NCBI GenBank assembly: GCA_026392035.1
Contig: JAPLCX010000059.1
Location: forward strand, 82-64,081
DNA: 64,000 nt
Direction of reading: 5' to 3'
Source of the DNA: Candidatus Auribacterota bacterium
Lineage (GTDB): Bacteria; Auribacterota; Tritonobacteria; UBA1439
Of the stretch, positions 1-49,074 are shown piece by piece. Each line of letters starts with the position of its first letter. Position 1 is the first letter of the stretch. The notes beneath the pieces were generated by a model. It saw only the letters and a list, made by a program, of their open reading frames with translations. It did no database searches and was not told where the DNA came from. Position numbers and translations under genes: made by a program.

Positions 1-405
1 AGAAAGAAAAGGCCGCATAAATAATACGTCACCGAACTTATGATCCAGAGCACTAAGTAATAGATACGAAATCCAGCAAAGTACTAAGCCATTAAGGAAA
101 AGCTGAGCCACCATGTGAGCTCCATGGTCAGGACAAAAAGGAATCAATTTTTCAAAAAAAGCCAGATAATAAAAGAGAATCGGACCGGGATGATGATGCT
201 CCCAGCGAGATGGGGGGCCAAGAAGTGCCGAGAACTTTGCAGCACGAATAACTTGAAGCCCATCTATTCCATAGTCAAAAGCCTTGTTTTTATATGTCCG
301 AAAAATGGTAATATTAAAAATAAGAAAGATAACTACCAGCAGGGTAGGAATACACCATATTGAGAGGATTCTTATAATAGAGCAACGTACTGACAAGGAT
401 TTCAT
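1..405 (-). CDS. partial CDS (the 5' part; the gene continues past the window start): integral membrane protein with a glycosyltransferase-like (ArnT/PMT-type) N-terminus
   Basis: On the minus strand there is an ATG at 403-405 and the frame stays open to position 1 with no stop, so it is missing from the ORF track. The translation begins MKSLSVRCSIIRILSIWCIPTLLVVIFLIF... It has several hydrophobic helices and the motif PGPILFYYLAFF. The region is about 35% GC while the window is about 60%. Confidence 0.4.
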   Translation of the reverse strand, partial: MKSLSVRCSIIRILSIWCIPTLLVVIFLIFNITIFRTYKNKAFDYGIDGLQVIRAAKFSALLGPPSRWEHHHPGPILFYYLAFFEKLIPFCPDHGAHMVAQLFLNGLVLCWISYLLLSALDHKFGDVLFMRPFLS

Positions 406-430
406 ATTATTAATCGGCTAACGCCATGCT

Positions 431-739
431 TCACCGGCGCGAAAACCGCCTGCGGGTTTCGCGTACGGTGGAAGCGCTTGTTCGCTGATCATCTTCATCT
501 TTGATTTGCTCCCACGGTATGCCCTTGCCCGCATGGATGCTGGCTCTCGATTCTTCAACCTTTTTCAGGAAACGAGGGTCGTTTTCCAGTCGGAAATCAA
601 ACCAGTCGTCTTCATCTTCAAATCCAATTAAAACGCCGGCCGGTTTCCCGTGCTTAGTAATAATGATTTTTTCTTTCCCCGCCTGTATTAAGTACCTCGA
701 AAAATGATCTTTGACCTTAGCTAATGCGACTTGTTTCAT
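431..739 (-). CDS. Phd/YefM-family type II antitoxin; no toxin gene adjacent
   Basis: The protein reads MKQVALAKVKDHFSRYLIQAGKEKIIITKHGKPAGVLIGFEDEDDWFDF..., which is a typical Phd/YefM fold signature. I chose the internal ATG (MKQVA) as the start; the ORF track begins 9 codons upstream. No YoeB/Doc-like ORF follows on the same strand. Confidence 0.6.
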   Translation of the reverse strand: MKQVALAKVKDHFSRYLIQAGKEKIIITKHGKPAGVLIGFEDEDDWFDFRLENDPRFLKKVEESRASIHAGKGIPWEQIKDEDDQRTSASTVRETRRRFSRR

Positions 740-835
740 GTTCGTTCTCCTTTTTCTCGCAGCCATTGTTCCGCATGGGACTTATTCACAATCCTTAGCA
801 CTACATATCCTATTCCACGGCAGAATAATATCGTG

Positions 836-905
836 GTCCGACCCCGCCACCCATCCGCGCCGGCAAGCCCAATTGTCAAGGATAAAGATTTGACCCCCAA
901 ACCTG
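836..905. repeat. partial copy of the right-hand module of the intergenic repeat family (CATCCGCGCCGG-AAGCCCAATTGTCAAGGATAAAGATTTGACCCCCAAACCT)
   Basis: It is near-identical to 5336-5396. It lies between the Phd antitoxin and the NUDIX gene. Confidence 0.5.
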
Positions 906-931
906 TTATAAGGGTTAGGCTGAATATTCAA

Positions 932-1420
932 TTAAATTTTAAGTAATTTATTTTCTATTTCTTCTCTCATCGAAATAATGTTCAACTGCTGATCATATTC
1001 AACATTGAACATAAAGTTTTTATTATCAACTAGATATTTATATATGTGCCAATCAGTTTTCGGTGCGGGAATTCCAAATAATTTTGAAAATCTGATCCAT
1101 TCAAGTTTACCTTCTTTGCAAGTAGGCGGATCAATATGCTCAATCTCGGCAAGATACACAAAACAGATCCAGTTATAATTAGTTGGTGAACTTTCAACCA
1201 TTACACCACAATATTTTGGATTTGTGATACGGATTCCAGTTTCTTCAAGTGTCTCTCGACTAGCTGAATGTATCGGACTCTCATATGGATCGATTTTTCC
1301 ACCAACCGGTGTATATTTACCTTTATTGGGTTCTTTTTTACGTTTCAACAGTAAGAAGCGGTCACCCGACTTCAAAATACACAAAACTGCTGGTTGTTTA
1401 TGTCCATTCGATACATACAT
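932..1420 (-). CDS. NUDIX hydrolase
   Basis: The Nudix box GX5EX7REUXEEXGU is present as GGKIDPYESPIHSASRETLEETGI. The protein is 162 aa. The gene is AT-rich compared with its surroundings. Confidence 0.8.
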   Translation of the reverse strand: MYVSNGHKQPAVLCILKSGDRFLLLKRKKEPNKGKYTPVGGKIDPYESPIHSASRETLEETGIRITNPKYCGVMVESSPTNYNWICFVYLAEIEHIDPPTCKEGKLEWIRFSKLFGIPAPKTDWHIYKYLVDNKNFMFNVEYDQQLNIISMREEIENKLLKI

Positions 1421-1436
1421 ATTTCAAACCATTTTC

Positions 1437-1487
1437 AGCCTAACGTCAGGAGTCAGGCGCGGGTAGCAACGTCGCCTGCACTCCTTG
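1437..1487. repeat. 51-bp imperfect inverted repeat with attC-like ends (GCCTAAC ... GTTAGGT)
   Basis: The sequence is GCCTAACGTCAGGAGTCAGGCG-CGGGTAGCAACG-TCGCCTGCACTCCTTGGTTAGGT. Its ends match the integron attC consensus RYYYAAC and GTTRRRY. The arms pair with unpaired extra bases, as attC sites do. It sits between two minus-strand cassettes. Confidence 0.35.
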
Positions 1488-1509
1488 GTTAGGTGGTTCT
1501 TCCTCGATC

Positions 1510-1929
1510 TTACTCCCGAATGCTATGTTCTTGAAAGTGCTGTCGAACTTTCGCCGCAACCTGACTATCAGTCATCTTGTCAATTGTTTCAATGCCAACG
1601 ACCCGTCCACCCAGTTTGTTTCTATCCAGACGTTTTTTCAGTTCGCCCTTGGCCTCACCGGGACCAAATATCAGAATAGATTCTGCATCACGAATACACG
1701 CAATTACCGCATCGTAGTAAATGTCGAGATGTCCCATAAACTTTCTATCGCGGATATCCCCTGCCGGTCCTTGCCGTGATCCATAGGGAGTCGTAGAACG
1801 TATATCATCAGAATGCCCGAGCTGTTTTTCAACCTTCGATATTAGCAGTTTTATCTCTTCCCCTCTGTCCGTAATCGCTACGATAAGAGCCTTCCTATGA
1901 TCAATCCACAAACCTACTTTTCTTTTCAT
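1510..1929 (-). CDS. hypothetical protein (139 aa)
   Basis: Intact ORF MKRKVGLWIDHRKALIVAITDRGEEIKLL...ILIFGPGEAKGELKKRL. I recognise no catalytic motif. It is flanked by repeat elements. Confidence 0.5.
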   Translation of the reverse strand: MKRKVGLWIDHRKALIVAITDRGEEIKLLISKVEKQLGHSDDIRSTTPYGSRQGPAGDIRDRKFMGHLDIYYDAVIACIRDAESILIFGPGEAKGELKKRLDRNKLGGRVVGIETIDKMTDSQVAAKVRQHFQEHSIRE

Positions 1930-1958
1930 AGATTTTCCTTTGTCTATTAAGTCCAGTT

Positions 1959-2097
1959 AACGACGGAATTGAGCGGCGCCCGCAGACGGGGCGGGGAGGA
2001 GCGAGCCGAAGGCTCGCGCATCCGCCCAACATAATGCTCACCCGTCGAGGGCCTAATGTCCGAAGATCTCGAGTGAAACGAGAGACCTTTGAGAAAA
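1959..2097. repeat. structured intergenic repeat, copy 1 (core plus a right module shared with 11890-11960)
   Basis: It starts AACGACGGAATTGAGCGGCG and contains the hairpin GCGAGCC-GAAG-GCTCGC inside an outer stem GGGCGG/CCGCCC. The right half matches CACCCATCGAGGGCCAATAGCCCAAAGATCTCGCGCAAAGAGAGCGACC near 11900. Confidence 0.6.
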
Positions 2098-2204
2098 CTA
2101 CAGTGCCAACCAAAAAAAACAACCACTGACGATTGCCACACCTGCGACTGCTGCTTATGCAAGTCACCGTTTCTCAGGTCGGGTGCAGCGGATAGTTTGC
2201 AGCT

Positions 2205-2501
2205 TCACTCTAGTTTGGATGGGTCAAGCAATCTAGCGCCGTGATGAATTGTAAGAAGCTCGACAAGTTCGGCGCGAAGCCGATAAACGATACGATAGCT
2301 TCCTGGGAGAATCTCACGGATAAGAGGGTCGTTCCTCTCCGGTACGATCCTTCCCAAGTTTGGGAAATTAGCAACCTGCTCAACAGCCTCAACGACGTCT
2401 GTGGCGAACAAACAAGCATAGTGTGGCGAGTCTTGCGAAATGAACTCAGTGATAGACTCCAGGTCATCGGCTGCTTGCGGAGTCCATCTCACTTCAGCCA
2501 T
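2205..2501 (-). CDS. RelE/ParE-family type II toxin
   Basis: The 98-aa protein MAEVRWTPQAADDLESITEFIS...YRIVYRL...ELLTIHHGAR has typical ParE/RelE features. Its start overlaps the upstream antitoxin gene. Confidence 0.7.
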   Translation of the reverse strand: MAEVRWTPQAADDLESITEFISQDSPHYACLFATDVVEAVEQVANFPNLGRIVPERNDPLIREILPGSYRIVYRLRAELVELLTIHHGARLLDPSKLE

Positions 2502-2671
2502 TTCGCCATCCGTTCCTTGACCTGAGCATGGGAAAGTGTCTTGCCGGCGTCAGCTTGCTGGAGCCCCCTTTCAATCTTCGAGAGAAACAGAAGACGCTCC
2601 ATCGCGTCTTCTACCGATGCATCATCTGGAAGCCCCTGCATAGCTTGGATCATCTTCTCTTTTTTCGTCAT
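2489..2671 (-). CDS. addiction-module antitoxin (ParD/RelB-like, 'putative addiction module component')
   Basis: The 60-aa protein MTKKEKMIQAMQGLPDDASVEDAMERLLFLSKIERGLQQADAGKTLSHAQVKERM overlaps the ParE gene by 13 nt, which is the classic antitoxin-toxin arrangement. Confidence 0.6.
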   Translation of the reverse strand: MTKKEKMIQAMQGLPDDASVEDAMERLLFLSKIERGLQQADAGKTLSHAQVKERMAKWLK

Positions 2672-2722
2672 ACCTGCAGCATACCTTTTTCGGTCTAGAG
2701 CGTCAACCGGCTATTCGCTGCC

Positions 2723-2826
2723 AACGACGGAATTGAGCGGCGATCCCGCCAAGGCGGGACGCGGTGAGGAGCGAGCGCATGAGCGCTCGCGCATCCGCGC
2801 CGGAAAGGCGGCAGTACCGCCCCGGG
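2723..2826. repeat. structured intergenic repeat, copy 2
   Basis: AACGACGGAATTGAGCGGCGATCCCGCCAAGGCGGGACGCGGTGAGGAGCGAGCGCATGAGCGCTCGCGCATCCGCGCCGG... The hairpin is GCGAGCGC-ATGA-GCGCTCGC. Confidence 0.65.
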
Positions 2827-2945
2827 CAAAACGTAAACTCCACCTCTTTGTTGGCCTCCTATTTCTTCTTGCTGATCAAACTTTTGTCCACATTCATCCA
2901 GATGGTAAATGAATTACCTGCTTCCATTTCTTAAGGATGTTGGCC

Positions 2946-5246
2946 CTAGGGTTGTAAATTTAGAGTCGAGAACATCGATGCTATGTCTTCGTCTTTAGTC
3001 ACTTCATCCTGACGGGATTCACTTGAAGAGAAATCGACATCGTCGTCACTTCTGGAGCTGTCTTGCTCTCGTTCATCAGCATGCTCTCTTATTGCAGCTA
3101 TATCTGCCTCGATATCGAGTTTGACAACCTTTGAAAGCGACTCCAGAGCTTCCGCCTCTTCGCGCAAGGCATCCGCATCAAGATCAGCATAGTCGGACGC
3201 GACGCTTTCAGCGACCTCCTGAATAGTGGCGGCCACTCGATCCATCTTTTCATCCGGGAAAAGTCCCGGGCGTGACTGCACGAGTCTGCACAAGGGCCGA
3301 AGGTCATCCGCCCACCGTGAGCCAACAAGCAACCCGTCGATAGCCTTTTCCATGAACGGCTCCGTCCATCTGCGGAAATCATCATCGGTAAGTGTTGTCA
3401 AGACATCGACAAGATCGGCTAGGCCGTCTCTATCGAATTCTTTTTTGGCGATGCGTGACTCAATTAGCGGAAAAGTCTCGCGTACAAATGAAAGAAGAGG
3501 TTTATGAGCATCCGCAGCGATCTCAGCAAATAGCGCGAGTCGTGACTCAATGGCATGCGGCCAGCGTTCTCTACTATCAACATTCCCTCTTCGCATGTTG
3601 ATCACGCGACACGGTTCTCCCGAAAGCAAACGGCGGAACATTTGCTCGGCCGTCTTTGAGTTGGCCTGGATAAGACCATACAGAAGCGGGCGCCGGTCAC
3701 GCCATGCCCAGAGGGAATCAAGTTGCTCGTAAAACACAACTGACAGAAACAACAAAGTGAACTCCGCATCGCTTGCCAAGAGATACTTTTTTACAAAATC
3801 AGCCACGGAGGGATTCTGAAAGCGAACCAGTATCTCCGCGCCCTCCTGATTATAAGAAAGAAAGTCACCCTCTAGCTCCTTGAGAGCGCTACGATAGTCC
3901 TGCGGCCCGATGGTTGCGGCATACTTTTTTGCATAGGCCAAGTTGTATGACTGATAAGCCTTCTCGGCGTCGCGTATGAAACACTGATGAGGCATGCTGG
4001 CCAGTACTAGCAGCAGGTTTCGGGCAGCCTGCGATAGCTGGTTGCTAAAAGCGTGTTCCCATAGGGCCAAAGGGTTTTCCATGCTGTTCATGAAGAACTC
4101 TATGTATCGAGCCGGCGGGACATCTCGGAGACGCGCGAACTCTGTCAAGAGTTGCACAATGCGGGGGCTATAGTTTCTGTGGTCAATGATCCGCAAATAG
4201 TTTTTGTCGGCCAGAATAGAGGCGCGATACTGAGTGGGCAAGGCGGAGAAGTAAATGTGGTTGAATAAGATGCGCGCCCGATTCATCCGCGTATACTTCG
4301 CAAGATCCACAATGCATTTCTGCGCGGTAAAGCCTTCTCGATTTAGTTTTTCATATTGCTGATATGCCTGCCGAAGGACGTATTCACGCGTTGTCAGAAT
4401 AAGCTTAATGCCGGTGGTCTTACGAATAGCATGAATAAAGTCGATGATACGTTGGTCTTCATTCTTGCGGAGCTTCTCCGAGAAGGATGTTTGTCCAAGA
4501 AAGTCGTCGTAGTAGAATACACGCCTTGTCTCGGGCGCCTTGAACTCCCACGCTTCAGCGATGTCTTCGCTGACCTTAATGACTTCGAAACCCGCGCGGC
4601 TATAGTGGAGAATAAGCATCTCCGCAAGGATGGTCTTTCCGATTCCAGGGATTCCGGCAATGATGCAGAAGTTGTCATGCTCGAGAATGTGGGCGGCTTC
4701 ATCAAAGCTCTCATTCTGAACATATAGCTTCGCATGCTCGCGAATTCTGTCCAACTCATGATTTGAGAAGTTCCTGACGGCCGCGTGGAGTACTTCTTCA
4801 AGCAGAGGAAGGCTAAATAACCACAGCTTGATTGTCTTACGTTCGACCTGCTCGAACTTACCGAGCAGATTGTTTAGATCGTCCTTGCCATAGACGTCAT
4901 CGGCGCATTTGATGAAAGGGTGAAGTGCCCGAACGATTTCGTCCTTCTTGGCCGGGTTCAATGGCACGGACGTAGCCACAATGTAACGCTCGGGCTTGAT
5001 CCGAGCCAGTTTAGGTAGTTCGTTGGTCGCTAGAACATGCAGAAGTGCATCGTAGCCCGATTCAACGTAGTGCTTACACTGGACGATCAGGTTGTTCTTG
5101 GCGTTGCGGGAATGACGGAAGTCTATGCCGCCGTCTCTGCCAGTGGTGAAAGACTGAAGTGTAAGGCCGAGTTCCTCCTGCAGTAGATCTCGAACGACTA
5201 CCTCAAAGTCAACTGGTGATAAGGTTCTGAAATCGTAGTTTGGCAT
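2946..5246 (-). CDS. Mrr-like PD-(D/E)xK nuclease domain fused to a STAND (NB-ARC/AP-ATPase-like) P-loop NTPase with a helical C-terminal region; candidate antiviral STAND (Avs-like) protein
   Basis: The true start is the ATG at 5246 (MPNYDFRTL...). The ORF-track N-terminus (MGFSGADARTLRAFAPPRVPPW...) is read-through into the upstream repeat. The N-terminal domain matches the Mrr catalytic fold: FEVVVRDLL...TGRDGGIDFR...IVQCKHY. Walker A is GIPGIGKT and Walker B is VFYYDDFLGQT. A sensor-1-like motif LILTTRE follows. About 450 aa of helical sequence lies downstream. The protein is 767 aa. Confidence 0.75.
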   Translation of the reverse strand: MPNYDFRTLSPVDFEVVVRDLLQEELGLTLQSFTTGRDGGIDFRHSRNAKNNLIVQCKHYVESGYDALLHVLATNELPKLARIKPERYIVATSVPLNPAKKDEIVRALHPFIKCADDVYGKDDLNNLLGKFEQVERKTIKLWLFSLPLLEEVLHAAVRNFSNHELDRIREHAKLYVQNESFDEAAHILEHDNFCIIAGIPGIGKTILAEMLILHYSRAGFEVIKVSEDIAEAWEFKAPETRRVFYYDDFLGQTSFSEKLRKNEDQRIIDFIHAIRKTTGIKLILTTREYVLRQAYQQYEKLNREGFTAQKCIVDLAKYTRMNRARILFNHIYFSALPTQYRASILADKNYLRIIDHRNYSPRIVQLLTEFARLRDVPPARYIEFFMNSMENPLALWEHAFSNQLSQAARNLLLVLASMPHQCFIRDAEKAYQSYNLAYAKKYAATIGPQDYRSALKELEGDFLSYNQEGAEILVRFQNPSVADFVKKYLLASDAEFTLLFLSVVFYEQLDSLWAWRDRRPLLYGLIQANSKTAEQMFRRLLSGEPCRVINMRRGNVDSRERWPHAIESRLALFAEIAADAHKPLLSFVRETFPLIESRIAKKEFDRDGLADLVDVLTTLTDDDFRRWTEPFMEKAIDGLLVGSRWADDLRPLCRLVQSRPGLFPDEKMDRVAATIQEVAESVASDYADLDADALREEAEALESLSKVVKLDIEADIAAIREHADEREQDSSRSDDDVDFSSSESRQDEVTKDEDIASMFSTLNLQP

Positions 5247-5262
5247 CTCTTTTCCCGTGGCC

Positions 5263-5396
5263 AACAACGGAATTGAGCGGCGATCCCGCCAAGGCGGGAC
5301 GCGGGGAGGAGCGAACGCCCGAAGCGTTCGCGCATCCGCGCCGGAAAAGCCCAATTGTCAAGGATAAAGATTTGACCCCCAAACCTCCCGTATGTC
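5263..5396. repeat. structured intergenic repeat, copy 3
   Basis: AACAACGGAATTGAGCGGCGATCCCGCCAAGGCGGGACGCGGGGAGGAGCGAACGCCCGAAGCGTTCGCGCATCCGCGCCGG, followed by the AAGCCCAATTGTCAAGGATAAAGATTTGACCCCCAAACCT module. The hairpin GCGAACGC-CCGAA-GCGTTCGC carries compensatory changes relative to copy 2. Confidence 0.65.
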
Positions 5397-5469
5397 CCGA
5401 TCCAGGTGATGAACTCTATATGATTGTCGCAAAATCGGCTTTTCTCATCTTTTACGCCCAACGTTGCTT

Positions 5470-6474
5470 TCACCGGCGGCGCGCTAGCGGCGTCCGGTGG
5501 AAGGCATGGTTGGGACGTTTTTCCATCGTCTTCCGAATCTGATACTTCACCTCAGGCTCATGCACGGCAGGGAACTCATCCATCCACGACAAATCCTTCC
5601 CAATAACCAATTCCTCCATTGTCGCATGATGCGTATTTCTCATGGGAATAAGACGCATTTGAAACCCATGTCTTCGGGCCATTGTCTTGACTTCTTCCGC
5701 GTTATCGTAGGTTATCAAGAAATCACCCCTCAACGACTCGCACACCGTAAACAATCGCTCATGGTCGATCTCGCAGTGGGTGTACAACCGCCTCCCAGCT
5801 TTCTTTCCACCAGCCGTATATGGAGGATCTATGAAATAGACTGCATGGCGGTTCGCTGCAAACTCCTGAATGACTTTTAACCCGTCATCACATCGGAAAT
5901 CAATTCTCGTTGCAACGTGGTTGAGGTCCGAGAGCCTCCTGGCGAGCGTCGCCGGGTACCAGCGAGAACGGATACCTTTCCCGTTCTCTCCGTACTTAAT
6001 GAATCCGGAACCATTGGCAAGAATTCCTCCATGGAGCGTTCGATTCTTAAGAATCGTCTGAAACGCTTTCTCTCGTCTTGTCTTCGGAGTTCTCGATAGT
6101 TCCTGTACAACGGATTCCTTGTTCAGGTCGAACGCAAGGATATGATTGGCCAGCCAGCCCGCGTCGCCATTGACCACCGTTTCCCATACTGCTGCGATTT
6201 CGTCGTCCAATTCGACCATCACTGCTTTCTGCACAAGATTCTCAAAGACAGCCGTAAGGCTGATAATTCCACCGCCAGCGAACGGCTCGACTAATATGCC
6301 AGGCTTCGAATACATGCGCGCGATCCAGTGCCGAAACGTTGGCACAAACCATGTCTTGCCGCCGGGGTAGCGGAAGGGGCTTCGTTGCGGGACCGATGCT
6401 ACATTGACCGGCCTCAGTGCTTCTATTTCTTCACGGAGCTCAGGGAATAAGAGGGATTGCTTGGGGATAGCCAT
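5470..6474 (-). CDS. DNA adenine (N6) methyltransferase, Dam / D12-class
   Basis: It carries FRYPGGK (motif I region) and the catalytic FIDPPY (DPPY). The protein is 334 aa. It ends 2 bp before the start of the endonuclease ORF. The C-terminal approximately 20 aa may be read-through toward the repeat. Confidence 0.8.
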   Translation of the reverse strand: MAIPKQSLLFPELREEIEALRPVNVASVPQRSPFRYPGGKTWFVPTFRHWIARMYSKPGILVEPFAGGGIISLTAVFENLVQKAVMVELDDEIAAVWETVVNGDAGWLANHILAFDLNKESVVQELSRTPKTRREKAFQTILKNRTLHGGILANGSGFIKYGENGKGIRSRWYPATLARRLSDLNHVATRIDFRCDDGLKVIQEFAANRHAVYFIDPPYTAGGKKAGRRLYTHCEIDHERLFTVCESLRGDFLITYDNAEEVKTMARRHGFQMRLIPMRNTHHATMEELVIGKDLSWMDEFPAVHEPEVKYQIRKTMEKRPNHAFHRTPLARRR

Positions 6475-6475
6475 G

Positions 6476-7384
6476 TCAGAATGGCCTCTCGATAGTCTTG
6501 TTTACGGGTGGAGTTTCGATCTGTTCATCCAGCTTTTCCTGAAGCAGTTTCACGAAGTCGTTGATCTTCCCTGGCGCGGGAGTTGTGATAGACATCAAGG
6601 CTGGCTCGAATTGGGTGAACACTTCATCGATCTTGGTTAGCTTGAGCCTCTCTTGTCCGCCTTCCTTGGTAATCTTGAGGTCGTAGATCAGCCAGGCAAT
6701 TTCGGCTTTTGATTTGCTCACCTTTGCCAACGGGGGGAGTGTCTCAAAAAAGCTCTTGTTCAAGGCGACAGCGGTCTTCTTCTGCCAGGAATGCAGAATC
6801 CCGCCCTTGAAGAGAAGTTGTGGTGCCAGGCGTTTACGGGAAGATGAAAGATAGTCCGGGCGCGGATAGTTCGGTTGGGTTGACCAATCCATTTGTGCGT
6901 GCGTCTTCGGGTTCTTCATATAGTACTCAAAGGGATCGCGCACGTTGCCGGATATGTAAACAGCCTGAACCTCGAGGGCGCCGAAGTCGAAGACCTTACC
7001 ATTCTCGTCGTAAGCGACGAGGACAACGTCAATGTTACCGGCTGACTTTCCATGCACATCGTTAAGTCTCACTTCTGTCAAGGAACTCCACCGGGTGCCA
7101 TCGTCAAAGAAAAAGGATGCGGCATCGTCAGCGATGAGCCAGTCTTCGCGGAACCGTATCGGGCATGTTATCACGGTACTTCTCTCGTGCAAGACACTAC
7201 ACACGCCGAGAGGATTCTTGGCCTTGTCTTTCGTGCAGTTTGGCACTTTGTTGTTGAAGGGACACAGACGCCGAGACCGGTATCTGTCTGCCTTGGCCGA
7301 GTGATCGGTCAAGAGATGGCCAAAGACCTCTGCAAGTGGTTGTACGGGTTCTTTCATAGTTTCTCTCAATTCACTGCTTTCCAT
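6476..7384 (-). CDS. type II restriction endonuclease, NotI-family fold (PD-(D/E)xK with an N-terminal Cys4 metal-binding region)
   Basis: The region AEVFGHLL...CPFNNKVPNC...GVCSV...CPIRF...GALEVQAVYISGN...LLFKGGILHSWQKK is similar to NotI (AEFFGH...CPF...GVCVV...CP.R...GVLEIQTMDFHGS...FKRTFYQMAYKF). This comparison is from memory. The start is uncertain: ATG at 7384 (MESSEL) or 7357 (MKEPVQ). The ORF-track N-terminus is repeat read-through. Confidence 0.6.
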   Translation of the reverse strand: MESSELRETMKEPVQPLAEVFGHLLTDHSAKADRYRSRRLCPFNNKVPNCTKDKAKNPLGVCSVLHERSTVITCPIRFREDWLIADDAASFFFDDGTRWSSLTEVRLNDVHGKSAGNIDVVLVAYDENGKVFDFGALEVQAVYISGNVRDPFEYYMKNPKTHAQMDWSTQPNYPRPDYLSSSRKRLAPQLLFKGGILHSWQKKTAVALNKSFFETLPPLAKVSKSKAEIAWLIYDLKITKEGGQERLKLTKIDEVFTQFEPALMSITTPAPGKINDFVKLLQEKLDEQIETPPVNKTIERPF

Positions 7385-7457
7385 AGGAGGATCATACTGA
7401 ATTCGTAACTCCTTTTCAACCTCAACTCCCCCTACCTTCGGGATTCTCCCTTGTCCC

Positions 7458-7577
7458 AACGATGGAATTGAGCGGCGCTCCCGCCAAGGCGGGACGCGGG
7501 GAGGAGCGAACGCGAGCGCGCGCGCATCCGCGCCGCCGGGCGCGGACAACACATGATAGCCGCTCAATTCCTTCGTT
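7458..7577. repeat. structured intergenic repeat, copy 4 (complete element with terminal inverted repeats)
   Basis: The left arm is AACGATGGAATTGAGCGGCG and the right arm is GCCGCTCAATTCCTTCGTT. That gives a 19-bp inverted repeat with one mismatch, ending AAC...GTT. The internal hairpin is GCGAACGC-GAGC-GCGCGCGC. It lies immediately 3' of brnA. Confidence 0.65.
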
Positions 7578-7583
7578 CGCTGA

Positions 7584-7784
7584 TTACTCTATCGCTTCTG
7601 CAAGACGCTTGTCTGACTTGATTAGGTCATTGACGACGGAAGATAAGTCAGAATCCTTGCGCTCTGCAATTCTCTGCACGAACGAAAGATTCTCCCGATC
7701 TAGATAGACAGGCAGATTGAACTTTGCGTTTGCCCTGTAGAACTTGCCCCGCTGACCCTTGGAAAAATCGTATTCTTTCTTCAT
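7584..7784 (-). CDS. brnA: BrnA-type antitoxin (RHH-like, DUF4415-like)
   Basis: The 66-aa protein MKKEYDFSKGQRGKFYRANAKFNLPVYLD... follows BrnT by 4 nt. Confidence 0.65.
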   Translation of the reverse strand: MKKEYDFSKGQRGKFYRANAKFNLPVYLDRENLSFVQRIAERKDSDLSSVVNDLIKSDKRLAEAIE

Positions 7785-7787
7785 GTT

Positions 7788-8078
7788 CTACTCCTCATAG
7801 TGCTTCGTTTCTCTTTTTGTGGCCTTCCGGCTGGAAATTATCCGAATCCTCACCATCAGGTCATCAAGCTGGTCGTAGGTGTGATGAACAACTAGCAAGG
7901 CGCCTGTCGCAGAAATGCCAAGAGTGAGCCAGCGTTCCTCTGATTCGCCATGTTCAGAATCGAACACAGATATGGCTTTCGGGTCTCTGAACACCGTCGA
8001 GGCCAGTTCGAAGCTCACTTTGTGCTTGCGCTTGTTAGCTCTGGCCTTCTCGGGATCCCATTCGAAGTTATAGCGCAT
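7788..8078 (-). CDS. brnT: BrnT-type ribonuclease toxin (DUF497)
   Basis: MRYNFEWDPEKARANKRKHKVSFELASTVFRDP matches the DUF497/BrnT signature FEWD...K...N..KH.V.FEEA..VF.DP. Confidence 0.7.
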   Translation of the reverse strand: MRYNFEWDPEKARANKRKHKVSFELASTVFRDPKAISVFDSEHGESEERWLTLGISATGALLVVHHTYDQLDDLMVRIRIISSRKATKRETKHYEE

Positions 8079-8169
8079 TCCACCTCTCCCGATTGTAACA
8101 AGCTCTCTTCATGATAAGGCATGCCGACAGTTGGATCAATATTTCATTTTTAGCGCCGCGAACGACGGA

Positions 8170-8290
8170 ATTGAGCGGCAATCCCGCTAAGCAGGACGCG
8201 GGAAAAGAGCGAGCGCCCGGAGCGCTCGCGCATCCGCGCCGGCAAGGCGGCAGTCCCGCCCTGCGGGAGCGCCCGCTCGAATGACTTGTT
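8170..8290. repeat. structured intergenic repeat, copy 5 (degenerate right arm)
   Basis: AACGACGGAATTGAGCGGCAATCCCGCTAAGCAGGACGCGGGAAAAGAGCGAGCGCCCGGAGCGCTCGCGCATCCGCGCCGG...GCCCGCTCGAATGACTTGTTCGC. The hairpin is GCGAGCGC-CCGGA-GCGCTCGC. GCCGCGAAC occurs at both flanks. Confidence 0.6.
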
Positions 8291-8745
8291 CGCACCGCAT
8301 TTACGCCGCGAACAGCTATTTCCCAGTTCATATATTTTAGCCGAAAAATGGCCTGATGTAATCAAGACAATTCACGAATATTCCGGATAAGGAGAGATGA
8401 AAACAGGTAATTCTACTCTATCTGGGGTAGATGATTTCGGAGAGTGCGGAGTCGGCTTGATGCGTAGGAATAGTATAGAGGAGAGAAAGGGAGCGGCGGC
8501 CGGAGCTTATTCACAGCCGTACTCAATCACCCTCACCCTGACCCTCCCTTCGGCAGGCGAATTTATCCTGAGCGAAGCCGAAGGAGGGCAAGCTCCCCGT
8601 CAGGAGGGGGAGGGGATAAGAAGAAAGAAAAAAAACGGGGGGATGGCACTGCGACGTCCCCCCGCCGCGATCAGGCCCCAGCCCGGCGAAGCCAACATAG
8701 GACAGGCGTGGCCGGCTCCACTAAACGCATGGTGAGGTTGTTGAT

Positions 8746-9231
8746 TTATTCCTTTTTGTAATCCTTTTTGTGATGCTTGGGGGCAACAAATTCCCCTTGC
8801 GGATTGACGCGGACATCGATCTTTGCTTTGTCCTGAAGCATTTTCACTTTGTACACAATCTGATCGCCTTTGATTTTCTTTTCTGCCGATACGATGACAC
8901 AGCCAGCATACTTCGTGGTGACTGCCTGGGACACCTTCGACGGCAGGTCGCTTGGTTTCAGCTCTTCCTCAATTTCCAATAAGTCCCCCTGTGCCGAGTA
9001 TTCCACGTTTCGATGTGTCGAGCCATCAATTGACTCTATCTCGTACGATGTTTTCCCACGGTGTTGCTCCGTTGAGTAGTTTTTCACCGTTGCGTTCGGA
9101 TACGCCTTCTCAAACGCTGCGATGACGGCGGAGGGGACATCAGCCTTCTTGATCGTTTGCTCTTCAGCCGATATCGCCACCGTGAGTGCTACGAGAAACA
9201 GACATGTAAGAACAGCCAATGCGCATCTCAT
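8746..9231 (-). CDS. PepSY-like (DUF2874-type) periplasmic/lipoprotein with a signal peptide
   Basis: The start is at MRCALAVLTCLFLVALTVAISA, a signal peptide. Two PepSY-like repeats are present: VPSAVIAAFEKAYPNATVKNYS...YEIE and LPSKVSQAVTTKYAGCVIVSAEKKIKGDQIVYKVKM. Confidence 0.55.
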   Translation of the reverse strand: MRCALAVLTCLFLVALTVAISAEEQTIKKADVPSAVIAAFEKAYPNATVKNYSTEQHRGKTSYEIESIDGSTHRNVEYSAQGDLLEIEEELKPSDLPSKVSQAVTTKYAGCVIVSAEKKIKGDQIVYKVKMLQDKAKIDVRVNPQGEFVAPKHHKKDYKKE

Positions 9232-11757: not shown

Positions 11758-11898
11758 GAGTAAATCAGTGGTGATTCATCTGTGGTAACATCCGTATAAT
11801 TAAGCCGCTGTATAGAAATTCTTTTCTTTCTCCATTTACCACAGATTTATTCACCACAGATTGGCGCAAACTTCCTCCCCCCCCCAAAAAATCTTCAC
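11758..11898. repeat. 141-bp repeat A; a perfect inverse-orientation copy lies at 48916-49056. It contains several ACCACAGAT motifs, a TATAAT hexamer and a C9 homopolymer.
   Basis: GAGTAAATCAGTGGTGATTCATCTGTGGTAACATCCGTATAATTAAGCCGC...TTTACCACAGATTTATTCACCACAGATTGGCGCAAACTTCCTCCCCCCCCCAAAAAATCTTCAC is identical to the reverse complement of 48916-49056. An extra CAACCACAGATT motif lies at 11723. Confidence 0.8.
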
Positions 11899-11977
11899 CA
11901 TCACGCAAGACTCACCCATCGAGGGCCAATAGCCCAAAGATCTCGCGCAAAGAGAGCGACCCGGCGTCAGATGTTTC

Positions 11978-12400
11978 TCAAGTCGGGTGCTGCACGGGGT
12001 CAGGTCGAGGGCGTACTATTCTAACGAATAACGGCAAAGATTTTTCGGATTTGCCGTCTATAGCCAGGTCTATTGAATACTGGCCCGCTTTTTCGATCTT
12101 GAAATTATGAATGTTTAAAATTAAATTGCTCACCACATAGTGCTGTTCTTCTTTAAATTTAATCTCCACGTTAGCGTTAAGACTCGGGAGAATAGGCTTT
12201 CCATCTTCATCGACGAAGTTGATTTTTATTCTATGTCCTCCCTCTTCTATTTGGCTGAATCGTATTCTCAGTGCGACTGAACACTGAGGATGTATCACGG
12301 GGAACTTCTGGGCATACAGGCAGTCAAATGCGCCTAATATATTGAGTTTTCCGCCGGTTTCCGTAGCCGCATCACAAAGGGCGAAGACTTCTATATCCAT
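11978..12400 (-). CDS. hypothetical protein (140 aa)
   Basis: Intact ORF MDIEVFALCDAATETGGKLNILGAFDCLYA... with no recognisable motif. Confidence 0.45.
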   Translation of the reverse strand: MDIEVFALCDAATETGGKLNILGAFDCLYAQKFPVIHPQCSVALRIRFSQIEEGGHRIKINFVDEDGKPILPSLNANVEIKFKEEQHYVVSNLILNIHNFKIEKAGQYSIDLAIDGKSEKSLPLFVRIVRPRPDPVQHPT

Positions 12401-12516
12401 AGAATTACCTCCAGTCTGTTAAAAAGGTCTTATATGAAGCTCACCAGTCCCCAAACACTTTTTTGGTCGGAGGCTGCGGGTGTTCATGCGCTACGATATG
12501 ATAAATCGACCGCCAT

Positions 12517-12852
12517 CTAATTTGAGTCATGACCACGACCTGATAATTCCCTGTTGAGGGAAAAATTTAAAACTGTTCTTATCGCAACTATTGCGCCCAG
12601 GACTATTATCTCATTTAAGCTCGGTTTAACAATAGTATTCACGATGTCTGCTGCGATTAAGAACTCCAGCCCCAGTAAAAGATAGGAGCCGAGATGGTGT
12701 CTTACTATCTCTCTGTTCCGGCATTTATCTACTCCTTTTAGCCTATTAGATTCCACTACTATGAATTCAATCAAGCTTGATAAAACACCCCATACGATAA
12801 TCGAAACGCCTATAAGCCCTATTCCCAGCGTTAGAAAATGCAATATCCTCAT
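12517..12852 (-). CDS. membrane protein (DUF1622-like)
   Basis: The 111-aa protein has hydrophobic helices (ILHFLTLGIGLIGVSIIVWGV, YLLLGLEFLIAADIV). Confidence 0.45.
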   Translation of the reverse strand: MRILHFLTLGIGLIGVSIIVWGVLSSLIEFIVVESNRLKGVDKCRNREIVRHHLGSYLLLGLEFLIAADIVNTIVKPSLNEIIVLGAIVAIRTVLNFSLNRELSGRGHDSN

Positions 12853-12939
12853 TTATAGCCTCCCTCTGATAACCGGAGATACATGAATGAATCCCTGACT
12901 ATGCCCCCCCTCGGCAGAGTCCCCTGCGACTTGGCCTGC

Positions 12940-13398
12940 TCATTCGCTCCCGGCTATCTTCCGTGTGCGATACCCCTCATAATCAGTTACCAGACGATCA
13001 TATTCTCCATCCATTAAGGGGGATGAGATCATGAAATCAGCGGAAGCCCGATTGCAGGCAATCGGGATGTTCCACACCACCGCCATCCGCAGGAGCGCCT
13101 TGACGTCGGGATCATGGGGCATCGGTTCGAGCGGATCCCGGAAAAAGATCAGGAAATCGATCTCGCCATCGGTGATCTTTGCGCCGATTTGCTGATCACC
13201 GCCCAATGGTCCGCTCTGGAGTTTCGTGACTTTGAAGCCAAGTTCGCGTTCCGGCATCTCGCCGGTGGCATACACTTTATGGTGCGCCAGGAGATCGCGG
13301 TTGAATTTGGCCCACTCCACCAGAGCCCCTTTCTTATTGTCATGCGCGACAATGGCAATCTTCTTATCATGTTTCATAGCGATTTTTTTATCAGCCAT
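12940..13398 (-). CDS. mgsA: methylglyoxal synthase
   Basis: IAIVAHDNKK...YATGEMPERELG...LQSGPLGGDQQIGAKITDGEIDFLIFFRDPLEPMPHDPDVKALLRMAVVWNIPIACNRASADF is close to E. coli MgsA. Confidence 0.85.
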   Translation of the reverse strand: MADKKIAMKHDKKIAIVAHDNKKGALVEWAKFNRDLLAHHKVYATGEMPERELGFKVTKLQSGPLGGDQQIGAKITDGEIDFLIFFRDPLEPMPHDPDVKALLRMAVVWNIPIACNRASADFMISSPLMDGEYDRLVTDYEGYRTRKIAGSE

Positions 13399-13921
13399 AT
13401 GATTTCTTCAGTCCTTTCTCCGCAGCGGCGGAACTACCCTGACCGTGTGGCACCAATGCAAACGGTTATGTTTCACTCCGCCTACGCACACCATCGCTTT
13501 AAAAAGGCCGCTCAAGACACATTAGACATACCAGGTTATTGAACATTTTACAGAGATCTCAATGCCCCGGCAATATTATTTGTTATTATCAAAGGGGTTA
13601 TGTCATAATTGAAATCACACCTCCTACTACAGAATTTCTCGGGCACACACACCGCGAGACGACAATAAGTTAAACACATATCAAGAGTGTAGGGGAGTAA
13701 GAAGCCTACTGGGCACGTTGGAATAATCAAACAGAGGAAAAGGTCGTAGACGTTATATGTCGTCCTATCTCTAAGAAAAGATTGCAGACAAATTCATTCC
13801 CCAGGGATGAATTAAGATTCAACCCGTTCGCATTGCGGCGGTTAGATAAAACGTCTACAACTTACTGGAGCATCTATGGAAAATTCTAATTAAAACTGTT
13901 AAAATTATAGGTGAAAATGTT

Positions 13922-48841: not shown

Positions 48842-48915
48842 CAATCGCAGGTGCGCAGGTAGTGTCAAAAGTTCTATGAAAGAGCTGAATGCAACCACAG
48901 ATTGCACAGATAGTT

Positions 48916-49056
48916 GTGAAGATTTTTTGGGGGGGGGAGGAAGTTTGCGCCAATCTGTGGTGAATAAATCTGTGGTAAATGGAGAAAGAAAAGAATTTCT
49001 ATACAGCGGCTTAATTATACGGATGTTACCACAGATGAATCACCACTGATTTACTC
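48916..49056. repeat. 141-bp repeat B, the perfect reverse-complement copy of 11758-11898 (includes a G9 tract)
   Basis: Exact identity to the reverse complement of repeat A. It ends 19 bp before the prs start codon. An extra CAACCACAGATTGCACAGATAG lies at 48893. Confidence 0.8.
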
Positions 49057-49074
49057 CACAAAGGAGGGGTGACA

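What the first reader, a model, noticed from the sequence alone, without database searches (positions are those of the whole stretch)
1400..8330. Co-oriented defense and toxin-antitoxin cassettes punctuated by a covarying structured repeat: integron-like cassette array (CALIN-like) candidate
Seven gene modules all sit on the minus strand. They are the Phd antitoxin, NUDIX, a 139-aa unknown protein, ParE with its antitoxin, the Mrr-STAND protein, the Dam methyltransferase with a NotI-like endonuclease, and BrnTA.

Each module is separated by a copy of one repeat family, with copies at 1959, 2723, 5263, 7458 and 8170 and a fragment at 836. Every copy starts AACGACGGAATTGAGCGGC. It then has the hairpin CCCGCC-AA-GGCGGG, followed by a stem-loop that shows compensatory changes between copies. 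The stem-loop is GCGAGCGC-ATGA-GCGCTCGC in one copy, GCGAACGC-CCGAA-GCGTTCGC in another and GCGAGCC-GAAG-GCTCGC in a third. The outer stem also differs, CGCGG/CCGCG versus GGCGG/CCGCC. Copy 4 is a complete 120-bp element with 19-bp terminal inverted repeats ending AAC...GTT.

The selection here acts on structure rather than sequence, on elements of 57-140 bp placed 3' of each cassette. That is the hallmark of integron attC sites, and chromosomal integron cassettes are typically rich in toxin-antitoxin modules. No intI gene is present in the window at the position where one would be expected, to the right of 8.3 kb. The alternatives are a MITE/REP family or a small-RNA family that marks insertion hot spots.
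Basis: partly seen in the sequence, partly recalled or inferred. Interest (0 to 1): 0.8.

Follow-up and report, generated by a model that had tools for sequence, protein, structure and literature searches.

The report
Integrase-less integron gene cassette array
This stretch is a chromosomal array of integron-type gene cassettes (toxin-antitoxin pairs, restriction and other anti-phage genes) separated by attC recombination sites, with no integrase gene nearby; this is a known kind of element (a CALIN), seen here in a poorly studied candidate phylum.

Summary
Five copies and one fragment of a structured repeat separate co-oriented minus-strand gene modules, and the repeat's hairpins covary.

The integron reading holds. 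I built a covariance model from 13 class 1 integron attC sites taken from clinical plasmids. In 64 kb it finds exactly four significant sites, all on the gene strand.

Cassettes show the integron hallmark: the variable bases of their own attC R'' box complement the first bases of the cassette in 8 of 15 cases, against 1.3% in controls.

Near-identical strains carry different cassettes at the same locus. For example, the 2.5-kb Mrr-STAND cassette is replaced by a 0.47-kb one.

No integrase was found in the window or in about 90 related loci, so this is a CALIN. The host is probably related to Candidatus Auribacterota.

Four of the five window copies are not canonical attC sites: one is truncated, one chimeric, one a perfect palindrome, and one has its 5' arm replaced by a conserved 40-nt hairpin module of unknown role.

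This is a new member of a known kind, of moderate interest.

The parts
1..405 (-). 5' part of the next cassette gene. It runs off the left end of the window and is a 659-aa protein in a sister contig.
   Evidence: The gene list of ENA contig ERZ1426817 shows, after this gene, a hydrolase, valS and leuA.
416..486 (-). Short canonical attC site (S1). It overlaps the stop codon of the Phd gene.
   Evidence: Model R1 scores 25.6 bits, E 5e-4, full length. The DNA fold shows an L box with an extrahelical G.
431..766 (-). Phd/YefM-type antitoxin gene
   Evidence: Pfam PF02604, E 1.4e-9.
836..925 (-). Truncated A1-type family copy. It has the A1 module and the start of hairpin B. The in-phase R'' 7-mer GCCTAAC lies at 913-919.
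   Evidence: (D3, D5). GCCTAAC complements the NUDIX cassette start GTTAGGC.
932..1420 (-). NUDIX hydrolase cassette gene
   Evidence: Pfam PF00293, E 8.6e-17. There is a weak PADLOC PDC-S07 match. The same cassette sits directly after the PepSY gene in strain L041.
1438..1494 (-). Short canonical attC site (S2): ACCTAAC...GTTAGGC
   Evidence: R1 scores 38.1 bits, E 3.5e-7, on the minus strand, against 11.8 bits on the plus strand. Fold.
1510..1929 (-). 139-aa cassette ORF of unknown function
   Evidence: ORF list. No Pfam or PADLOC hit.
1959..2031 (-). Family copy 1. It has the L'-spacer-R' arm and two hairpins, but the 5' arm is missing (truncated).
   Evidence: Not detected by R1.
2205..2671 (-). 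ParE toxin (2205-2501) and a 60-aa antitoxin (2489-2671) cassette, with a promoter-like site at 2706-2678
   Evidence: Pfam PF05016. Promoter scan. The same cassette is present in L051.
2720..2863 (-). Family copy 2, a chimeric attC. Its 5' arm matches the short attC type found in strain L105; the interior and 3' arm are family type. The R'' GGCCAAC is in phase with the cassette start GTTGGCC.
   Evidence: Not detected by R1.
2946..5249 (-). Mrr_cat + nSTAND3 NTPase defence gene. Its cassette spans 5264-2725 (2.54 kb).
   Evidence: Pfam PF20720, E 5e-52, and PF04471. PADLOC PDC-S73, E 1.7e-159. In the 99.3%-identical strain L105 it is replaced by a 0.47-kb cassette.
5259..5389 (-). Family copy 3, A1-type. 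The 5' arm is replaced by the 40-nt module GGGGTCAAATCTTTATCCTTGACAATTGGGC. It forms an ORF-less 197-bp unit.
   Evidence: (D5). It fails R1.
5456..5515 (-). Short canonical attC site (S3): TCCCAAC...GTTGGGC. It overlaps the 3' end of the methyltransferase gene.
   Evidence: R1 scores 41.3 bits, E 5e-8. The fold has extrahelical G and T. The R'' matches the cassette start GTTGGGA at 7 of 7 positions.
5470..7357 (-). Restriction-modification cassette: D12 N6-adenine methyltransferase (5470-6474) and NotI-like endonuclease (6476-7357). A promoter-like site lies at 7419-7391.
   Evidence: Pfam PF02086 and PF12183. PADLOC MTase_II and REase_II. Promoter scan.
7454..7581 (-). Family copy 4. Both arms are present as a near-perfect 19-nt inverted repeat. 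It has no unpaired spacer and no extrahelical bases.
   Evidence: (I6). Not detected by R1. Its 5' arm corresponds to an inverted mini-site in L066.
7584..8078 (-). BrnT toxin (7788-8078) and a 66-aa partner (7584-7784) cassette. A promoter-like site lies at 8139-8111.
   Evidence: Pfam PF04365, E 7e-26. Promoter scan.
8157..8294 (-). Family copy 5, a complete long (about 135 nt) canonical attC. It is the first site of the array.
   Evidence: R1 scores 25.2 bits, E 6.5e-4. The 5' arm AAC-AAGTC-ATT-C-GAGCGG is built like the arm of aadA/psp attC sites. Fold.
8295..8745 (-). Leader region between the PepSY gene and the first attC. It is conserved in strain L051 and absent in L066 and L041. A promoter-like site lies at 8362-8334.

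Best explanation
The region from before position 1 to about 8.3 kb is an integron-type gene cassette array. It is a cluster of attC sites lacking an integron integrase (a CALIN) in the chromosome of a bacterium related to Candidatus Auribacterota.

**How it works.** Each unit is a promoterless or self-promoted gene, or gene pair, followed by an attC site. The bottom strand of the attC (here the + strand) folds into a hairpin with an R box, an unpaired spacer, an L box and extrahelical bases. An integron integrase, which must be encoded elsewhere or is now lost, cuts between G and TT of the 3' core site (R'). Whole cassettes are inserted and excised at that point.

**Cargo.** The cassettes carry toxin-antitoxin pairs (Phd, ParDE, BrnTA) and anti-phage genes (a NotI-like restriction enzyme with a Dam-like methylase, and Mrr-nSTAND3).

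It is the lineage's own long attC family, about 130 nt.
- Copy 5 is intact.
- Copies 1 to 4 are derivatives (truncated, chimeric, A1-type, palindromic) that can no longer fold canonically.
- These copies are probably frozen as recombination sites. They still offer about 100 nt of homology for ordinary homologous recombination.

**Shown:** site anatomy, model scores, strand polarity, cassette phase and strain-level cassette replacement.

**Inferred:** that an integrase made the junctions, and whether the array is still active.
For: 1. **Independent attC model.** Model R1 was built from 13 attC sites of class 1 integrons on clinical plasmids. It gives four hits in the window: 41.3, 38.1, 25.6 and 25.2 bits. 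All are on the minus strand and all lie between cassette genes. Nothing else in 64 kb scores below E about 1.
2. **Folded structure.** DNA folds show an R box, a spacer and an L box. G/T (or C/T) extrahelical bases sit in the 3' arm of the + strand, at the canonical distances from the core.
3. **Arm sequences.** The arms of the repeat family match aadA/psp-type attC arms: AAC-AAGTC-ATT-C-xAGCxG and ...AAT-TCnGnC-GTT.
4. **Cassette phase.** In 8 of 15 neighbouring site pairs, the four variable bases of R'' complement the start of the same cassette. Non-cognate pairs do so in 1.3% of comparisons. The mean match is 3.1 of 4 against 1.5 of 4.
5. **Related loci.** Full-length family members in Auribacterota MAGs and metagenomes also pass R1 and sit in arrays with short attC sites.
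6. **Same locus, different cassettes.**
   - L105 is 99.3% identical to the window but carries a 0.47-kb cassette instead of Mrr-STAND.
   - L051 carries a Type IIG restriction-modification enzyme, a GIY-YIG/RAMA protein and HicAB.
   - L041 has only NUDIX, and L066 starts with BrnTA.
   - The NUDIX cassette starts at the same G|TTAGGC behind two different sites.
7. **CALIN criteria.** The criteria of Cury et al. 2016 are met: at least 2 attC sites on one strand less than 4 kb apart, and no integrase within 4 kb (PMC4889954). The gaps between sites are 952, 3962 and 2646 nt.
8. **Base composition.** GC content is 0.42-0.53 in the array against about 0.57 in the rest of the window.
Against: - No integron integrase, or any other tyrosine recombinase, was found in the window or in about 90 related loci of 1-14 kb. 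No partner enzyme is therefore shown.
- Only one of the five window copies of the repeat passes the attC model. The most common local variant (A1-type) fails it even with filters off.
- The left breakpoint of the L105/window cassette swap lies inside the hairpin B loop of copy 3, not at G|TT. This points to homologous rather than site-specific recombination for that event.
- R1 is my surrogate for the IntegronFinder model, and its E-values are rough.
- No attI site could be recognised.
Confidence: 0.88

Rival explanations
1. The repeat is a REP/BIME-like or MITE-like dispersed element that merely accumulates between genes. The gene modules are an ordinary defence island, not cassettes.
For: - Copy 4 has 19-nt terminal inverted repeats.
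- Most local copies (A1-type, truncated, chimeric) cannot form an attC hairpin.
- The A1 module has a fairly sharp 5' boundary and can be tandemly repeated.
- Several large metagenome contigs carry a single copy.
Against: - Copies are confined to one 8-kb locus in 64 kb, and all share the orientation of the genes.
- Whole MAGs give only 1-4 clustered exact matches.
- Family homology ends exactly at GTT, and the next ORF starts 11-100 nt later.
- Full-length members and interleaved unrelated short sites pass an attC model trained on class 1 integrons.
- Cassette phase is 8 of 15 against 1.3%.
- No target-site duplications were seen.
Confidence: 0.04
2. The repeat works mainly at the RNA level, as a terminator, a transcript-stabilising hairpin set or a small RNA between genes. 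Its covariation would then reflect RNA structure, not DNA recombination.
For: - Hairpins B and C covary.
- The copy 5 hairpin is followed by a T-rich run and is flagged terminator-like.
- The elements lie in transcribed orientation between genes.
Against: - There are no Rfam matches, even at E up to 1.
- Only one copy has a T-run.
- The conserved parts are the attC arms and the GTT junction, not the hairpins.
- attC sites are known to keep their central hairpins by structure, so covariation is expected under the integron reading too.
Confidence: 0.05
3. The array is a fossil. The lineage no longer has any integron integrase, and all present-day cassette turnover comes from homologous recombination between the roughly 100-nt family repeats, for example after DNA uptake. 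The attC features are relics.
For: - No integrase was found in any locus.
- Four of five family copies in the window are degenerate.
- The L105/window swap has its left breakpoint inside the repeat.
- At 13470-13700 there is a possible decayed recombinase C-terminus.
Against: - Four sites remain fully canonical and high-scoring.
- Phase is perfect in many cassettes, and such junctions would decay without selection or recent activity.
- The recombinase remnant has no statistical support.
- Only about 5 kb around each related locus was seen, so a trans-acting intI elsewhere in the genome is not excluded. Half of known CALINs are in replicons that encode IntI (PMC4889954).
Confidence: 0.3

Closest known systems
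CALIN, a cluster of attC sites lacking an integron integrase (Cury et al. 2016, IntegronFinder; PMC4889954)
   Same: - There are four or more attC sites on one strand, less than 4 kb apart, with no integrase within 4 kb.
- The cassettes are not antibiotic-resistance genes.
- No clear intI pseudogene lies nearby, as for 95% of CALINs.
   Different: - The host phylum is new: Auribacterota-like. No paper in the searched library pairs that name with 'integron'.
- About half of the sites are chimeric or truncated derivatives of one long attC family.
Sedentary chromosomal integrons with species-specific attC repeats (for example the Vibrio cholerae superintegron and its VCRs)
   Same: - It is chromosomal and sits at a fixed locus in several strains.
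- It has a homogeneous long (about 130 nt) attC family.
- It is rich in toxin-antitoxin and anti-phage cassettes.
- Cassette content differs between strains.
   Different: - There is no intI or attI at the head of the array.
- The array is small: about 9 sites in the window plus its left flank, not tens to hundreds.
- Canonical short attC sites of other types are interleaved.
attC sites of class 1 mobile integron cassettes (aadA1/aadA2, psp, qacL type)
   Same: The arm architecture is the same and the arm sequence is nearly the same: R'' AAC, a 5-nt spacer AAGTC, ATT, an extrahelical C (G on the bottom strand), then a 6-bp stem. The 3' arm is AAT-TCnGnC-GTT.
   Different: The central part is about 80 nt with three hairpins, instead of a 4-nt loop. 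The cargo is not resistance genes.
Anti-phage defence cassettes in integrons (bioRxiv 10.1101/2024.07.02.601719; PMC12614218)
   Same: Defence genes are carried as integron cassettes: restriction-modification, a STAND NTPase, and candidate PADLOC systems.
   Different: At 2.0 and 2.5 kb the cassettes are at the upper end of usual cassette size. Function is not tested here.

Membership tests
Integron attC recombination site | Core sites R'' (RYYYAAC) at the 5' end and R' (GTTRRRY) at the 3' end of the top strand | tested here: met
   - S2: ACCTAAC...GTTAGGC.
- S3: TCCCAAC...GTTGGGC.
- S1: AGCGAAC...GTTAGCC.
- Copy 5: GCGAAC...GTTCGCG.

AAC and GTT are invariant; the outer bases fit loosely.
Integron attC recombination site | Imperfect palindrome that folds as R box, unpaired central spacer, L box and a variable terminal structure | tested here: met
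   DNA folds of 416-486, 1438-1494, 5456-5515 and 8157-8294, and their alignment to the R1 structure. Not met by copies 1, 2 and 3. Copy 4 folds but has no spacer.
Integron attC recombination site | Extrahelical bases on the bottom strand, in the R''/L'' arm. These set the polarity, so the top strand has the sense of the cassette ORF. | tested here: met
   - The + strand (the bottom strand) carries an unpaired G and T in S3 and S1, a C and T in S2, and a G and C in copy 5. They lie 8-9 nt and a further 5-7 nt in from R''.
- S2 scores 38.1 bits on the gene strand against 11.8 bits on the other.
Integron attC recombination site | Significant score with an attC covariance model | tested here: met
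   The surrogate model R1, built from 13 class 1 sites, gives four hits with E from 5e-8 to 6.5e-4. Copies 1-4 are not detected. IntegronFinder's own model was not available.
Integron attC recombination site | Cassette phase: the first bases of a cassette (TTNNNN) complement the R'' of that cassette's own attC | tested here: met
   8 of 15 pairs match 4 of 4, against 1.3% of non-cognate comparisons. In the window, the RM cassette matches 7/7, the Mrr-STAND cassette 7/7, NUDIX 7/7 and BrnTA 6/7.
Integron attC recombination site | Recombined by an integron integrase as folded single-stranded DNA | not testable with these tools
   This needs a recombination assay.
CALIN (Cury et al. 2016) | At least two attC sites on the same strand, each less than 4 kb from the next | tested here: met
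   Four model-supported sites on the minus strand, with gaps of 952, 3962 and 2646 nt. The definition is in PMC4889954.
CALIN (Cury et al. 2016) | No integron integrase within 4 kb of the cluster | tested here: met
   - tblastn with IntI1 (the query proved 100% identical to plasmid intI1) and with XerD finds nothing in the window.
- Pfam hits for the right-hand neighbours include no recombinase.
- The genes on the left flank, seen in a sister contig, include no recombinase.
Complete integron | An intI gene (a tyrosine recombinase with the IntI-specific insertion) next to the array, divergent from the cassettes | tested here: not met
   The motif FLGHTHRETTIS*THI at about 13640-13700 is the only trace. 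It has no Pfam or BLAST support.
Complete integron | An attI site and a Pc promoter at the head of the array | tested here: inconclusive
   A 110-nt leader upstream of the first attC is conserved with strain L051. It holds a promoter-like site at 8362-8334, matching 9 of 12 positions. Promoter-like sites are not enriched over shuffles, and attI has no general model.
Sedentary chromosomal integron | A large array (about 20 or more attC sites) of homogeneous, lineage-specific attC sites at a fixed chromosomal locus | tested here: inconclusive
   A fixed locus downstream of the PepSY gene is seen in the window, L051, L066, L041, L105 and the ENA contigs. A lineage-specific family is present. Only about 9 sites are present, and there is no intI.
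REP/BIME or MITE | Many copies dispersed over the genome, in both orientations, unrelated to gene boundaries; for MITEs, terminal inverted repeats with target-site duplications | tested here: not met
   Copies are confined to 836-8295 in the window and are all in one orientation. There are 1-4 clustered exact matches per MAG. Only copy 4 has terminal inverted repeats, and there are no duplications.

The most novel reading that the evidence does not exclude
The A1-type elements are more than decayed attC sites. In them a nearly invariant 40-nt hairpin module (GGGGTCAAATCTTTATCCTTGACAATTGGGC) replaces the R''/L'' arm, while the covarying hairpins and the L'-R' arm are kept.

They could be one of two things:
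- a distinct, still-spreading unit, that is an R''-less recombination site used in a non-canonical way, perhaps as double-stranded DNA like an attI or by an unknown partner protein;
- a mobile regulatory or operator module that overwrites the 3' half of resident attC sites and so fixes cassettes in place.

Their R' ends are genuine in-phase cassette junctions, and they head the array in two strains.
Probability: 0.12. Interest if true: 0.65.

Novelty: new member of a known kind. Interest (0 to 1): 0.35.

Why it matters
- It extends integron-type cassette arrays, with toxin-antitoxin and anti-phage cargo, to a barely studied PVC-group candidate phylum.
- It gives a clean natural example of cassette replacement between 99%-identical strains.
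- It shows how a lineage-specific attC family decays into chimeric and truncated forms when no integrase is nearby.
- The cassettes (Mrr-nSTAND3 / PDC-S73, a NotI-like restriction-modification pair, a 139-aa unknown protein, a NUDIX protein) are candidates for defence-gene screens.
- None of this changes how integrons are understood.

Tried and rejected
- **Rfam.** Scans at gathering threshold over the whole window, and at E up to 1 over 300-8800, found nothing.
- **Hairpin scan.** A home-made scan for AAC...GTT pairs ranked by folding energy was not specific. Long GC-rich coding stretches outscored real sites, so I dropped it.
- **Integrase search.** tblastn with IntI1 and XerD against the window and all loci found nothing. 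A stitched translation of the possible recombinase remnant at 13470-13700 got no Pfam hit, so I do not count it as an intI pseudogene.
- **Exact-protein look-ups.** Look-ups for the Phd gene, with two different starts, found nothing. Logan contigs found with NUDIX and mnmA were 100% identical to the window and added no variation.
- **A1-type copies.** I looked for a hidden R'' arm upstream of A1-type copies with R1, filters off, and found none. I tested A1 as a sigma-70 promoter: it has TTGACA but no -10 box at 16-18 nt (by eye).
- **Replication origin.** A DnaA-box search to explain the GC-skew minimum near 13 kb showed no enrichment.

Full report
**What is in the sequence**

The 19-mer AACGACGGAATTGAGCGGC occurs at + 1959, 2723 and 8161 exactly. 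It occurs at 5263 and 7458 with one mismatch, and in inverted form at 7559-7577. That is six matches against 0.04 expected, and there are none elsewhere in the 64-kb window. Self-BLAST and repeat finding define five copies of 75-145 nt and a fragment at 836-904.

- Phd (431-766)
- NUDIX (932-1420)
- ParE (2205-2501)
- Mrr_cat+nSTAND3 (2946-5249)
- D12 methyltransferase (5470-6474)
- NotI-like endonuclease (6476-7357)
- BrnT (7788-8078)

PADLOC models add three matches: PDC-S73 for the STAND protein (E 1.7e-159), type II MTase/REase for the restriction pair, and a weak PDC-S07 match for NUDIX. GC content is 0.42-0.53 here against about 0.57 in the rest of the window.

On 35 family members from the window and related loci, the three helices are 90% paired, and 8 of 18 pairs have changes on both sides. 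None of 500 shuffles reaches the observed score, and sliding the partner columns drops pairing to 31-58%.

Three boundaries carry short hairpin sites unrelated in sequence to the repeat: 416-486, 1438-1494 (ACCTAAC...GTTAGGC on the gene strand) and 5456-5515 (TCCCAAC...GTTGGGC). Folded as DNA, each shows:
- a paired R box
- a 2-5 nt unpaired spacer
- an L box
- two unpaired bases (G and T; C and T in one site) in the 3' arm of the + strand, 8-9 nt and a further 5-7 nt in from the core

This is the geometry of the bottom strand of textbook attC sites such as attC-aadA7 (the comparison rests on established knowledge of attC structure). It makes the minus strand the top strand, which is the sense of the genes.

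**Independent model test**

No attC model is in Rfam, so I built one.
- I took 13 attC sites of class 1 integron cassettes from clinical plasmids: aacA4, aac(6')-IIc, ereA2, aadA1, aadA2, lnuF, dfrB1, estX, psp, cmlA1, qacL, dfrA27 and dfrA14.
- I found the plasmids with IntI1 as a protein query. My recalled IntI1 sequence proved 100% identical to the plasmid genes.
- I aligned the sites and gave them the canonical structure of R box, spacer, 3-bp L stem, bulge, 6-bp stem and bulge. From this I built model R1.

Searched over the whole window on both strands with filters off, R1 gives four significant hits, all on the minus strand:

| Site | Bits | E-value |
|---|---|---|
| 5456-5515 | 41.3 | 5e-8 |
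| 1438-1494 | 38.1 | 3.5e-7 |
| 416-486 | 25.6 | 5e-4 |

The next best hit has E about 1. The same site, 1438-1494, scores only 11.8 bits on the other strand. The remaining 56 kb serve as an internal negative control.

The arms of copy 5 (AAC-AAGTC-ATT-C-GAGCGG ... CCGCTC-AAT-TCCGTC-GTT) are almost those of the psp/aadA/qacL attC sites (AAC-AAGTC-ATT-C-AAGCCG ... CGGCTT-AAT-TCTGGT-GTT).

**The repeat family elsewhere**

An exact scan of one genome per species found the family in three contigs of two Candidatus Auribacterota MAGs (L007, L008, L022). There are only 1-4 clustered matches per MAG.

L007 also shares housekeeping genes with window 50.5-55.5 kb at 67-76% nucleotide identity. The host is therefore probably related to that PVC-group phylum.

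A metagenome scan gave 71 more loci. Across all loci, about 30 copies have both canonical arms (35-141 nt), 16 are A1-type (described below), and about 10 are near-perfect palindromes.

Full-length copies pass R1: L082 36.8 bits, L029 35.6, L008 34.1, L028 30.4, L036 27.7. They sit in arrays interleaved with short attC sites of other types that score up to 42 bits. L022 shows a tidy array with a HicAB cassette.

**Cassette phase**

In an integron, the six bases after the G of R' belong to the next cassette, and they come from that cassette's own attC. They should therefore complement its R''.

For 15 neighbouring site pairs in which the downstream site is defined by the model, the four variable bases match 4 of 4 in 8 cases and 3 of 4 in 3 more. 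The mean is 3.1. Non-cognate comparisons give a mean of 1.5, and 1.3% are perfect.

In the window:
- The RM cassette matches GTTGGGA to TCCCAAC.
- The Mrr-STAND cassette matches GTTGGCC to GGCCAAC at 2857-2863.
- The NUDIX cassette matches GTTAGGC to GCCTAAC at 913-919.
- BrnTA matches 6 of 7 positions.

This is hard to explain without recombination at G|TT.

**Strain variation**

Several contigs carry the same chromosomal locus, downstream of the PepSY and amidohydrolase genes, with different cassettes.
- **L105** is 99.3% identical to window 8382-5261, then has a 0.47-kb small-membrane-protein cassette where the window has the 2.54-kb Mrr-STAND cassette. Homology resumes at the R'' arm and at GTTGGCA before ParD. 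Its own attC passes R1 at 20.6 bits.
- The gene list of ENA contig **ERZ1426817** fits the L105 form. It also shows that the array ends two genes to the left of the window, next to a hydrolase gene, valS and leuA.
- **L051** has, after the same leader, an unknown gene, a Type IIG restriction-modification enzyme with a GIY-YIG/RAMA protein, a PIN/SWIM unit, HicAB, and then ParDE.
- **L066** goes from PepSY straight to an A1-type element and BrnTA.
- **L041** goes from PepSY to an A1-type element, NUDIX and another A1-type element.

The NUDIX cassette starts at the same G|TTAGGC behind a short attC in the window and behind a family element in L041.

**No integrase**

- tblastn with IntI1 and XerD finds nothing in the window or in any of about 90 loci.
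- Pfam hits for the right-hand neighbours are PepSY, amidohydrolase, DUF2721, DUF6941, an MGS-like protein, nadC, birA, coaX and mnmA.
- A motif at about 13640-13700 (+), FLGHTHRETTIS*THI, looks like the C-terminal end of a tyrosine recombinase. It has no Pfam or BLAST support, so I do not rely on it.

By the published definition (at least 2 attC sites on one strand less than 4 kb apart, no integrase within 4 kb; PMC4889954) this is a CALIN. The gaps between sites are 952, 3962 and 2646 nt.

- **Copy 5 (8157-8294)** is an intact long attC.
- **Copy 4 (7454-7581)** has a 5' arm that is the exact complement of its 3' arm. It therefore has no spacer and no extrahelical bases. In L066 the same place holds an inverted mini-site followed by a canonical site.
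- **Copy 2 (2720-2863)** is a chimera. Its in-phase R''/L'' arm matches the short attC of the L105 cassette, and the rest is family interior. The arms cannot pair.
- **Copy 1 (1959-2031)** lacks a 5' arm.
- **Copy 3 (5259-5389) and the fragment (836-904)** are A1-type. The R''/L'' arm is replaced by a nearly invariant module, GGGGTCAAATCTTTATCCTTGACAATTGGGC, with a GTCAA/TTGAC hairpin.

A1-type copies fail R1 even with filters off. Yet their GTT is a true, in-phase junction (L068). In 3 of 8 cases the in-phase R'' lies 15-62 nt upstream of A1, as if A1 and the rest had overwritten the 3' part of an older attC. I cannot say what A1 does. It has a TTGACA but no -10 box, and it can be tandemly repeated (L040).

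**Mechanism**

The best-supported reading has five parts.
1. Cassettes were assembled by an integron integrase acting on folded bottom-strand attC sites. This is inferred from the site anatomy, strand polarity and cassette phase.
2. The enzyme is now either elsewhere in the genome or lost.
3. Toxin-antitoxin cassettes with their own promoter-like sites (8139-8111 and 2706-2678) stabilise the array, as established for chromosomal integrons.
4. Defence genes as cassettes are already documented (bioRxiv 10.1101/2024.07.02.601719; PMC12614218).
5. Some turnover is by homologous recombination between the family repeats. In the L105/window swap, the sequences diverge from the loop of hairpin B inside copy 3, not from G|TT.

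**Rivals**

- A REP/MITE family is contradicted by confinement to the locus, orientation, exact GTT boundaries, model hits and cassette phase.
- An RNA element is not excluded as a side role, but it explains none of the junction data and has no Rfam support.
- A fossil array without any integrase in the genome remains a live sub-hypothesis (about 0.3).

**Verdict**

This is a CALIN-type integron cassette array, a new member of a known kind in an understudied phylum. It has an unexplained derived form of its attC family. Interest is moderate (0.35).

Noticed in passing
window 11758-11898 and 48916-49056: A 141-nt exact inverted repeat lies 37 kb apart. Each copy sits just upstream of a gene start: the DUF2721 gene on the minus strand, and an ORF starting at 49069 on the plus strand. 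Both copies carry repeated CCACAGAT motifs. A Logan contig (L002) joins the reverse complement of 48858-48887 directly to 11899.
   Followed up: partly
window about 12000-14500: The cumulative GC skew has its minimum at about 13-14 kb. Gene orientation switches there too, from minus-strand genes on the left to plus-strand genes on the right, as at a replication origin. A DnaA-box search showed no enrichment.
   Followed up: partly
window 5259-5389 and 836-904; L035, L040, L041, L042, L050, L051, L053, L062, L063, L066, L068, L092: A conserved 40-nt 'A1' module (GGGGTCAAATCTTTATCCTTGACAATTGGGC, with a GTCAA/TTGAC hairpin) replaces the 5' arm of the attC family in 16 copies. It can be tandemly repeated (L040 10116 and 10155) or stand alone (L035 2083). 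Its role is unknown.
   Followed up: partly
window 2040-2085 and 11905-11950; 2170-2190 and 11965-11990; L049: Two further short repeated motifs lie downstream of the ParE gene and of the DUF6941 gene: CGAGATCTTYGGRCWATTRGCCCTCGAYGGGTGAG and GCACCCGACYTGAGAAAC. The second is also found upstream of a family attC in L049.
   Followed up: no
window 6476-7357; L105 1031-1912; L106: The NotI-like endonuclease is one 293-aa ORF in the window. In 99.3%-identical strains it is called as two ORFs (94 + 193 aa), which suggests the restriction enzyme is inactivated there while the methylase stays intact.
   Followed up: no
window 13470-13700 (+): The translated motif FLGHTHRETTIS*THI resembles the C-terminal LGH..TT.IYTH box of tyrosine recombinases, with a stop where the catalytic Tyr would be. 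It lies divergent from the minus-strand gene block. It has no Pfam or BLAST support.
   Followed up: yes
window 13900-14540 (+): A nucleotidyltransferase/HepT-like (MNT-HEPN) toxin-antitoxin pair appears broken into several short ORFs.
   Followed up: no
window 8500-8700; L041 8139-8200: A CCCCTCCCC / GGGGAGGGG-type palindromic sequence lies downstream of the PepSY gene. It is present in differing forms in two strains.
   Followed up: no
L023, L026, L052, L057, L059, L069, L073, L075, L079: Hits I first took for chance matches of the 19-mer, including one in a 2.9-Mb Planctomycetota contig, also carry the matching R'' arm AACAAGTCATTCGAGCGG. This attC arm type is therefore widespread across phyla in environmental metagenomes.
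   Followed up: partly
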